64,000 nucleotides of DNA from assembly GCF_045037415.1 (NCBI RefSeq), contig NZ_CP173440.1, one strand, 5' to 3'. This document shows, piece after piece, positions 3,907 to 4,867 of this stretch. This DNA is from Escherichia coli (GTDB taxonomy: Bacteria > Pseudomonadota > Gammaproteobacteria > Enterobacterales > Enterobacteriaceae). Every line of letters begins with the position of its first letter. Positions within the stretch are counted from its first letter, which is position 1. The notes beneath the pieces were generated by a model, which did not search any database, was not told the DNA's origin, and was given only the letters and a program-made list of their open reading frames with translations. The translations under genes were made by a program, and so were the position numbers.

Positions 3907-4065
3907 ATTACCTCCGACCATCGACACAAAACTCATTGATCTTGAGACCCTGGCCTGGTATGGGAAAGAGCTTGATCTCGCTGCCTCCAGACTAAAGGCT
4001 GAGCTTATGGCCATTTCTGTTTTGCGTGAGGAGGTCAGTATGGCCGTTCGGGTAATGACTCCAAC

Positions 4066-4569
4066 TTATTGATAGTGTTTTATGTTCAGATAATGCCCGA
4101 TGACTTTGTCATGCAGCTCCACCGATTTTGAGAACGACAGCGACTTCCGTCCCAGCCGTGCCAGGTGCTGCCTCAGATTCAGGTTATGCCGCTCAATTCG
4201 CTGCGTATATCGCTTGCTGATTACGTGCAGCTTTCCCTTCAGGCGGGATTCATACAGCGGCCAGCCATCCGTCATCCATATCACCACGTCAAAGGGTGAC
4301 AGCAGGCTCATAAGACGCCCCAGCGTCGCCATAGTGCGTTCACCGAATACGTGCGCAACAACCGTCTTCCGGAGCCTGTCATACGCGTAAAACAGCCAGC
4401 GCTGGCGCGATTTAGCCCCGACGTATCCCCACTGTTCGTCCATTTCCGCGCAGACGATGACGTCACTGCCCGGCTGTATGCGCGAGGTTACCGACTGCGG
4501 CCTGAGTTTTTTAAATGGCGGAAAATCGTGTTGAGGCCAACGCCCATAATGCGGGCGGTTGCCCGGCAT
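4066..4569 (-). CDS. insB: IS1 InsB (transposase made by InsAB frameshift)
   Basis: 167-aa ORF matching IS1 InsB; overlaps insA in the -1 frame. Confidence 0.9.
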
Positions 4570-4763
4570 CCAACGCCATTCATGGCCATATCAATGATTT
4601 TCTGGTGCGTACCGGGTTGAGAAGCGGTGTAAGTGAACTGCAGTTGCCATGTTTTACGGCAGTGAGAGCAGAGATAGCGCTGATGTCCGGCGGTGCTTTT
4701 GCCGTTACGCACCACCCCGTCAGTAGCTGAACAGGAGGGACAGCTGATAGAAACAGAAGCCAC
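4488..4763 (-). CDS. insA: IS1 InsA
   Basis: [43 protein letters not shown] is the canonical InsA sequence. Confidence 0.92.
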
Positions 4764-4867
4764 TGGAGCACCTCAAAAACACCATCATACACTAAATCAG
4801 TAAGTTGGCAGCATCACCGGCCGTTCGTAGGAAAAAAGGAGACGCCAGTTAGCGGCGGACTGTGGGA

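What the first reader, a model, noticed from the sequence alone, without database searches (positions are those of the whole stretch)
4042..4827. IS1 with intact 9-bp target duplication
The direct repeat GGCCGTTCG on both sides indicates simple insertion into intergenic sequence, without later rearrangement. This contrasts with the IS110 copies, which show rearranged flanks.
Basis: seen in the sequence. Interest (0 to 1): 0.25.

Follow-up and report, generated by a model that had tools for sequence, protein, structure and literature searches.

The report
Ordinary recent IS1 insertion, duplication intact
A complete, standard 768-bp IS1 mobile element recently jumped into a large Klebsiella resistance/virulence-type plasmid, leaving its usual 9-bp footprint; this is real and cleanly proven, but entirely ordinary.

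Summary
A full 768-bp IS1 lies at window 4051-4818 on the minus strand, flanked by GGCCGTTCG at 4042-4050 and 4819-4827. Removing IS1 and one 9-mer gives a sequence found 100% identical and uninterrupted in dozens of Klebsiella pneumoniae IncFIB/IncHI1B plasmids. In all, 458 PLSDB records and 13 E. coli plasmids hold the empty site. No record, GTDB representative genome or JGI metagenome contig carries this junction. The closest IS1-free relative, NZ_CP117741.1, matches the flanks at 100% and 99.996%, and both alignments claim the same 9 bases. This is a recent simple transposition with no later rearrangement.

The element is intact: canonical ends, insA, insB', the A6C slippery site and a 232-aa InsAB'. 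It differs by 2 nt from K-12 IS1B and is 100% identical to widespread copies.

One refinement applies. "Intergenic" holds for the target as it was, but the site is the out-of-frame 3' remnant of a 192-aa gene that a 1-bp insertion had already truncated in this plasmid lineage.

The contrast with IS110 is real. The two IS4321-family copies bracket a ~25.5-kb inversion. That family makes no duplications anyway.

Verdict: already known, low interest.

The parts
4042..4050 (.). Left copy of the 9-bp target-site duplication, GGCCGTTCG
   Evidence: It is present once in the empty-site homologs.
4051..4818 (-). Complete IS1 element (768 bp), with transposase genes on the minus strand
   Evidence: It is 100% identical over 768 bp to many E. 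coli copies that PGAP labels 'IS1-like element IS1B family'. It differs by 2 nt from K-12 IS1B and 7 nt from IS1A.
4051..4073 (.). IRR-type terminal inverted repeat, GGTAATGACTCCAACTTATTGAT
   Evidence: Exact match to the canonical end. 18 of 23 positions are complementary to the other arm.
4796..4818 (.). IRL-type terminal inverted repeat (reverse complement GGTGATGCTGCCAACTTACTGAT). It overlaps the only promoter-like site in the region (minus strand, 4811..4784).
   Evidence: PMC12428005 places the weak IS1 promoter partly over IRL.
4488..4763 (-). insA, 91 aa, with a zinc-ribbon domain and an HTH domain. It starts at IS1 position 56.
   Evidence: Pfam PF03811 and PF12759. Start position.
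4066..4569 (-). insB' reading frame (DDE domain), in the -1 frame relative to insA
   Evidence: Pfam PF03400, E = 2.3e-78.
4506..4515 (-). Slippery site TTTAAAAAAC (the A6C motif) for the -1 ribosomal frameshift. The modelled fusion gives a 232-aa InsAB'.
   Evidence: The fusion scores 243.8 bits against NCBIfam NF033558, cut-off 100. The motif is described in PMC12428005.
4819..4827 (.). Right copy of the 9-bp target-site duplication, GGCCGTTCG
3496..3906 (+). Truncated (136-aa) form of the upstream gene, annotated 'DNA-binding protein' or hypothetical. It has no Pfam or NCBIfam match.
   Evidence: Annotation. No family hits.
3886..3895 (+). C-rich tract (CACCCCACCC) holding the net 1-bp insertion that frameshifts the 192-aa gene in this plasmid lineage
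   Evidence: Alignment with the intact homologs L003-L005.
3907..4050 (+). Out-of-frame 3' remnant of the ancestral 192-aa gene, left of IS1. It is the annotated 'intergenic' target.
   Evidence: The remnant frame reads ...LREEVSMAVR up to the IS1 junction.
4828..4852 (+). Last 8 codons plus the stop (RKKGDAS*) of the ancestral 192-aa gene, displaced to the right of IS1
4868..5227 (-). Convergent 119-aa hypothetical gene. Its stop lies 40 bp from the right duplication copy, and it is untouched.
4843..4857 (-). Terminator-like hairpin with a T-tract downstream of the 119-aa gene. It is left intact, and its T-tract ends about 3 bp from the insertion.
   Evidence: This is a consensus match only.
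3997..4012 (+). Weak terminator-like hairpin on the plus strand, left of the insertion and intact
   Evidence: This is a consensus match only.

Best explanation
An intact IS1 of the widespread IS1B-like variant transposed into a Klebsiella pneumoniae-type IncFIB/IncHI1B conjugative plasmid. Its own InsAB' transposase, made by a -1 ribosomal frameshift at the A6C site, bound the two terminal inverted repeats and made a 9-bp staggered cut at GGCCGTTCG. Repair of the two gaps duplicated that 9-mer. The event is recent, and the copy has not since recombined with another IS1. The landing spot was a 184-bp non-coding gap between two convergent genes. That gap is itself the dead 3' tail of a gene already truncated by a frameshift, so the insertion is most likely selectively neutral. 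Shown here: the anatomy, the empty site, the single 9-mer in relatives and the absence of later rearrangement. Inferred: the staggered-cut chemistry (established for IS1), neutrality, and self-mobilisation rather than mobilisation in trans.
For: Anatomy:
- The element is 768 bp with canonical IRL and IRR, insA, insB' and TTTAAAAAAC, and a modelled 232-aa InsAB'.
- These match the IS1 description in PMC12428005: 768 bp, imperfect inverted repeats, A6C motif, 232-aa InsAB', 8- or 9-bp duplication.

Empty site:
- The flanks joined through one 9-mer (1009 bp) are 100% identical and uninterrupted in 30 or more listed Klebsiella plasmids.
- 458 PLSDB records and 13 E. coli plasmids hold the site.
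- A three-way alignment shows the junctions exactly.

Closest relative:
- In NZ_CP117741.1, window 1-4050 aligns at 100% and window 4819-32361 at 99.996%.
- Both alignments end or start on the same 9 record bases.

Occupied site:
- It is found in none of the 5000 best-scoring PLSDB records, in no GTDB representative genome and in no JGI metagenome contig.

Against: Nothing found contradicts it. Four caveats remain:
- Activity of this copy was not measured.
- Its InsAB' carries F81, a change that PMC12428005 suggests may weaken K-12 non-consensus IS1 copies, so mobilisation in trans by another copy cannot be excluded.
- The local target is not AT-rich (about 52% GC within +-25 bp, against 45.5% for the window), whereas IS1 is said to favour AT-rich DNA (from memory).
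- Neutrality is inferred, not tested.
Confidence: 0.97

Rival explanations
1. The occupied site is ancestral, and the many empty-site plasmids lost IS1 by precise excision, through slippage between the two 9-bp repeats.
For: Precise excision between target duplications is a known rare event (general knowledge). An empty site alone does not give direction.
Against: The empty site occurs in 458 PLSDB records across Klebsiella, Escherichia, Raoultella, Citrobacter and others, at 85-100% identity. This includes deeply diverged homologs (L003-L005). The occupied site occurs in none. Parsimony requires one gain, not hundreds of precise losses.
Confidence: 0.01
2. The flanking 9-mers are a coincidence or pre-existing repeat. 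IS1 arrived by another route, such as homologous recombination with another IS1, cointegrate resolution, or as the end of a composite transposon.
For: Related plasmids carry several IS1 copies, with 4-9 matching places per record, so recombination partners exist.
Against: Relatives have the 9-mer once, not twice. Both flanks are contiguous with each other in the relatives. The chance of a 9/9 match is about 3.8e-6. There is no second IS1 end anywhere in the window.
Confidence: 0.01
3. It is an assembly artefact, with a repeat-collapsed IS1 placed wrongly by the assembler.
For: IS1 is a multi-copy repeat that commonly breaks short-read assemblies.
Against: A misassembly would not create a precise 9-bp duplication of unique target sequence abutting both canonical IS ends. 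The flanks are otherwise base-perfect against the relatives.
Confidence: 0.01

Closest known systems
IS1 (IS1 family), IS1B-like variant as in E. coli K-12 IS1B (NC_000913.3, 279163-279930)
   Same: It has the same 768-bp length, identical terminal repeats and the same gene layout and A6C site. It differs at only 2 nucleotides (IS positions 127 and 704) and 1 residue of InsAB'. It is 100% identical to copies in many E. coli chromosomes and plasmids.
   Different: InsAB' residue 217 is Leu, as in IS1A, whereas K-12 IS1B has Gln. K-12 IS1B lacks a matching duplication in its present context, and the window copy has one.
E. coli K-12 IS1A/IS1E, the 'consensus' and most active IS1 type in PMC12428005
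   Same: Same length, ends, organisation and 232-aa InsAB'.
   Different: There are 7 nucleotide differences and two amino-acid differences in InsAB', L81F and S130R. PMC12428005 speculates that L81F may reduce activity. The fresh insertion here shows an F81 copy has moved, by itself or in trans.
IS4321/IS5075 group (IS110 family, IS1111 subgroup), the 'IS110 copies' used as contrast
   Same: They are also insertion sequences on the same plasmid, at 26436-27773 and 53297-54634.
   Different: They encode a DEDD-type transposase (NF033542, PF01548 and PF02371). They insert site-specifically into sequences resembling the Tn21-family terminal repeat (PMC8269217). They do not give classical target duplications (family knowledge). 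Here they bracket an inversion.

Membership tests
IS1 family (IS1 proper) | Length of 768 bp | tested here: met
   The element spans 4051-4818, which is 768 bp. It is colinear without gaps with K-12 IS1A and IS1B. The length is given in PMC12428005.
IS1 family (IS1 proper) | Imperfect terminal inverted repeats (about 23-30 bp) with the GGTGATGCTGCCAACTTACTGAT and GGTAATGACTCCAACTTATTGAT ends | tested here: met
   Both ends match exactly, and the arms are 18/23 complementary to each other. No differences from K-12 IS1A or IS1B fall in the ends.
IS1 family (IS1 proper) | insA (zinc-finger plus HTH repressor) followed by an overlapping insB' in the -1 frame | tested here: met
   ORFs 4763..4488 and 4569..4066. 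Pfam PF03811, PF12759 and PF03400 are all far above the gathering scores.
IS1 family (IS1 proper) | A6C slippery motif giving a 232-aa InsAB' DDE transposase by -1 frameshift | tested here: met
   TTTAAAAAAC lies at IS position 304. The modelled fusion is 232 aa. It scores 243.8 bits against NCBIfam NF033558 (equivalog), cut-off 100. That frameshifting actually occurs was not tested.
IS1 family (IS1 proper) | 8- or 9-bp target-site duplication on insertion | tested here: met
   A 9-bp GGCCGTTCG lies on both sides and occurs once in the empty-site homologs. The duplication size is from PMC12428005.
IS1 family (IS1 proper) | Transposition competence of this copy | not testable with these tools
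   It is inferred only, from the fresh insertion and the intact coding capacity. A mating-out or papillation assay is needed.
IS110 family, IS4321/IS5075 group (contrast elements only) | DEDD transposase, and insertion into Tn21-IR-like target sequence in a fixed orientation | tested here: met
   NF033542 at 341 bits, PF01548 and PF02371. PGAP names it 'IS4321 family'. Both copies abut an AAAACGGAA...AAA core. The uninterrupted repB target reads AAGAAAACGGAAAAAATT. Resemblance to the Tn21 repeat core is from memory. Targeting behaviour is from PMC8269217.

The most novel reading that the evidence does not exclude
The landing site may not be inert. The 64-codon remnant frame of the frameshifted 192-aa gene is still open in every frameshifted variant examined. 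If it is still translated, for example by +1 ribosomal slippage in the CAC-CCC-ACC-C tract, IS1 would replace the last 8 residues (RKKGDAS) with VMTPTY and so alter a conserved plasmid protein of unknown function. Separately, this insertion is natural evidence that an F81 InsAB' IS1 variant is mobile, against the suggestion that L81F disables IS1 copies.
Probability: 0.05. Interest if true: 0.25.

Novelty: already known. Interest (0 to 1): 0.06.

Why it matters
It matters little beyond bookkeeping. The IS1 copy with its 9-bp duplication is a clean, lineage-specific marker that separates this plasmid from its published near-identical relatives such as NZ_CP117741.1. That could help outbreak or plasmid tracking. 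It also shows that IS1 was recently active in this host-plasmid background. No new biology is implied.

Tried and rejected
- I searched for the same occupied site elsewhere. None was found in PLSDB, in the E. coli plasmids that hold the flanks, 13 of them clearly empty, in GTDB representative genomes or in JGI metagenomes.
- I considered that the strong Shine-Dalgarno-like GAGGAGG-N6-ATG at 4028-4042 marks a small unannotated gene hit by IS1. I rejected this. Those bases are simply internal codons (EEVSM) of the ancestral 192-aa gene.
- I looked for a hybrid outward promoter at the IS1 junctions. None was found. The only promoter-like site is the expected one over IRL.
- I tried to name the interrupted gene's family. 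Pfam and NCBIfam gave nothing for either the 143-aa or the 192-aa form.
- I tried to read Mahillon & Chandler 1998 (PMC98933) and Chen et al. 1998 (PMC107573) for family definitions and the activity-determining residues. Neither is held. My recollection that residues 193 and 217 matter is therefore unverified.
- An ungapped comparison with NZ_CP117741.1 failed after a 1-bp indel. I replaced it with BLAST.

Full report
**Observation.** Window 4051-4818 is a 768-bp element. Its left end reads GGTAATGACTCCAACTTATTGAT, and the reverse complement of its right end reads GGTGATGCTGCCAACTTACTGAT. These are the two canonical IS1 terminal repeats, and 18 of 23 positions are complementary to each other. 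GGCCGTTCG directly abuts both ends, at 4042-4050 and 4819-4827. It does not extend beyond 9 bp and occurs nowhere else on either strand of the 64-kb window. A 9/9 match at two fixed positions has a chance probability of about 3.8e-6.

**Anatomy of the element.** The minus strand carries three coding features:
- insA lies at 4763..4488 and encodes 91 aa. Pfam finds the InsA zinc ribbon PF03811 and HTH PF12759.
- The overlapping insB' frame lies at 4569..4066. Pfam finds the DDE_Tnp_IS1 domain PF03400 with E = 2.3e-78.
- The slippery sequence TTTAAAAAAC sits at IS position 304.

Modelling the -1 shift gives a 232-aa InsAB'. It scores 243.8 bits against the NCBIfam IS1 equivalog NF033558, whose cut-off is 100. 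The only sigma-70-like site in the region lies over IRL on the minus strand. That is where PMC12428005 places the weak IS1 promoter. Every feature that paper lists for IS1 is present: 768 bp, imperfect inverted repeats, insA/insB, the A6C motif, a 232-aa InsAB' and an 8- or 9-bp duplication.

**Which IS1 variant.**
- The copy is 100% identical over 768 bp to copies in many E. coli chromosomes and plasmids. PGAP names these 'IS1-like element IS1B family transposase'.
- It differs at 2 nucleotides from K-12 IS1B and at 7 from K-12 IS1A.
- At protein level, InsAB' equals IS1A plus L81F and S130R, or IS1B plus Q217L.
- PMC12428005 suggests L81F may contribute to the near-immobility of non-consensus IS1 copies in K-12. 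The fresh insertion described here shows that an F81 copy has moved, whether by its own transposase or in trans.

**The decisive test: empty sites.**
- I joined the two flanks through a single copy of the 9-mer to make a 1009-bp query.
- The query is 100% identical and uninterrupted in at least 30 listed Klebsiella pneumoniae plasmids. It is present at 80% coverage or more in 458 PLSDB records. These are overwhelmingly conjugative IncFIB/IncHI1B plasmids of about 200-430 kb.
- 13 E. coli plasmids also hold it.
- A three-way alignment shows the empty site with one GGCCGTTCG. The left junction follows it through the 9-mer into IS1, and the right junction resumes from the 9-mer.
- Searching with the occupied sequence (1786 bp) found no record covering 80% or more. 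The best hits are empty sites split in two, with 57% coverage, which equals the flanks plus 9 bp.
- The exact left junction is absent from the GTDB representative genomes and from JGI metagenome contigs.

**Closest relative.** NZ_CP117741.1 is a 341-kb IncFIB/IncHI1B plasmid from K. pneumoniae 2022CK-00768 (human urine, USA). It is the only PLSDB record that shares the window's arrangement around the first IS110-family copy. BLAST of the window against it gives two blocks around the site:
- Window 1-4050 aligns to locus bases 1-4050 at 100%.
- Window 4819-32361 aligns to locus bases 4042-31583 at 99.996%.

The two blocks overlap on the same nine record bases, which is the signature of a target-site duplication. 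The only difference at this locus is therefore +777 bp, made up of IS1 and one 9-mer.

**Is the target intergenic?** By annotation it is. In GenBank and RefSeq records of the nearest relatives, the site lies in a 184-bp gap between two convergent genes:
- One is a plus-strand gene of 136 aa, annotated 'DNA-binding protein' or hypothetical.
- The other is a minus-strand hypothetical gene of 119 aa.

In homologs that are 85-96% identical (L003, L004, L005), the plus-strand gene is 579 bp (192 aa) and stops only 15 bp before the convergent gene. Alignment shows that the window's lineage, like L001, L002 and L006-L008, has a net 1-bp insertion in the C-rich tract at 3886-3895. This creates a premature TGA at 3904-3906.

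The 'gap' is thus the out-of-frame 3' remnant of that gene. The remnant frame is still open for 64 codons and ends ...LREEVSMAVRRKKGDAS*. The duplicated 9-mer corresponds to ancestral codons (M)AVR, 8 codons before the ancestral stop.

Every 100%-identical empty-site relative already has the frameshift, so the frameshift predates IS1. 'Intergenic' is therefore operationally correct. The SD-like GAGGAGG-ATG just left of IS1 is simply internal coding sequence.

The gene appears dispensable. In NZ_CP116116.1 its start codon is ATA, it carries a 12-bp deletion and PGAP does not call it. In NZ_CP072906.1 an ISKpn34 sits about 150 bp upstream of the IS1 site. No Pfam or NCBIfam family matches either form of the protein.

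**Likely consequence.** IS1 sits between two weak terminator-like hairpins and leaves both intact:
- The plus-strand hairpin is at 3997-4012.
- The minus-strand hairpin is at 4857-4843, and its T-tract ends about 3 bp from the insertion.

No junction-spanning promoter is predicted. insA is co-oriented with the 119-aa gene, so any read-through past that hairpin would enter IS1 in the sense direction. This is an inference. PMC12428005 reports that flanking transcription modulates IS1 activity. Overall I infer the insertion is neutral.

**Mechanism.**
- Shown here: an intact element, a perfect 9-bp duplication, an unaltered single-copy target in relatives, and no exchange of flanks.
- From established IS1 biology (PMC12428005): InsAB' arises from the -1 frameshift, binds the inverted repeats and inserts with an 8- or 9-bp duplication.
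- The staggered cut and gap repair behind the duplication are general transposition knowledge.

Whether the event was cut-and-paste-like simple insertion or resolution of a replicative intermediate cannot be told from the product.

**The IS110 contrast.**
- Two identical 1338-bp segments lie at 26436-27773 (minus) and 53297-54634 (plus).
- Each encodes a 334-aa DEDD transposase. It matches NF033542 at 341 bits, PF01548 and PF02371, and PGAP labels it 'IS4321 family'.
- Of 539 records that hold the flanks of copy 1, only NZ_CP117741.1 has them on either side of the IS.
- NZ_CP072809.1 has a single copy, and window 26436-53299 is inverted relative to it.
- In that record the window's left flank of copy 1 runs straight into the reverse complement of the left flank of copy 2. 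The join falls inside the first codons of an intact 1089-bp repB (ATGACTGTGAACAAGAAAACGGAAAAAATTAAC).

The flanks are therefore genuinely rearranged. A second copy entered a Tn21-IR-like AAAACGGAAAA motif at the start of repB. The ~25.5-kb segment between the inverted copies then flipped, presumably by homologous recombination. IS4321/IS5075 are known to target Tn21-type terminal repeats and look-alike sequences (PMC8269217). This family does not normally leave duplications, so the meaningful contrast with IS1 is the flank exchange, not the missing repeat.

**Verdict.** The finding is real and correctly interpreted, with one refinement about the target. It is a textbook IS1 simple insertion. 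Novelty: already known. Interest: low.

Noticed in passing
window 3886-3906, with homologs L003-L005: The upstream 'DNA-binding protein' gene is 192 aa in diverged plasmids. In the dominant plasmid lineage (at least 98% identical) a net 1-bp insertion in a C-rich tract truncates it to 136 aa. The 64-codon remnant frame is still open in all frameshifted variants examined. In NZ_CP116116.1 the gene also has an ATA start and a 12-bp deletion and is not annotated.
   Followed up: yes
window 26436-27773 and 53297-54634: Two identical IS4321-family (IS110) copies in inverted orientation bracket a ~25.5-kb segment that is inverted relative to most related plasmids, for example NZ_CP072809.1, which has one copy. 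One breakpoint lies in the first codons of the RepFIB-type repB, in a Tn21-IR-like AAAACGGAAAA motif. This cuts repB from its native upstream region: the gene is annotated at 1080 bp here, against 1089 bp when intact.
   Followed up: partly
window 49836-51151: An ISL3-family element (ISCfr12-like, 406-aa transposase, 1316 bp) carries an intact 8-bp target duplication, TTATTTAT, at 49828-49835 and 51152-51159. It is absent at this site in NZ_CP117741.1 and present in NZ_CP072809.1.
   Followed up: partly
window ~60463-61430, with genes at ~55-60 kb: There is a CRISPR array of 29-nt repeats (GTATTCCCCCCGTGTGCGGGGGTTATCGG) with 32-nt spacers. In the relatives the adjacent genes are annotated as Cas6 and a helicase. 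This is probably the plasmid-borne type IV-A system of Klebsiella IncHI1B/FIB plasmids (from memory, not tested). The array region is the most divergent part against NZ_CP117741.1 (98.8% identity, 15 gaps), so spacer content differs. The two adjacent repeat-spacer units starting at 60646 and 60707 are 93% alike.
   Followed up: no
window ~32361, and L009 31584-32779: NZ_CP117741.1 carries an ISKpn26 (IS5-like) of about 1.2 kb that is absent from the window at this point. NZ_CP072809.1 carries an ISSpu2 (IS630-like) that is absent from the window near 49549. IS content is the main difference between these near-identical plasmids.
   Followed up: no
NZ_CP072906.1 (hits H74 and H125), equivalent to window ~3895: An independent ISKpn34 (IS3-family) insertion lies about 150 bp upstream of the IS1 site in another plasmid, in or next to the same frameshift tract. 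It is a second IS hit in this dispensable gene tail.
   Followed up: no
window 4051-4818 (InsAB' residues 81, 130, 217): This widespread IS1 variant has F81 and R130 like the poorly mobile K-12 IS1B, but L217 like the active IS1A. Its fresh insertion argues that F81 alone does not abolish mobility, contrary to a suggestion in PMC12428005.
   Followed up: partly
window 24450: A single-base indel (GAGAACCAC in the window, GAGACCAC in the record) is the only difference from NZ_CP117741.1 across window 4819-32361. It may be a real mutation or a sequencing error, and its coding effect was not checked.
   Followed up: no
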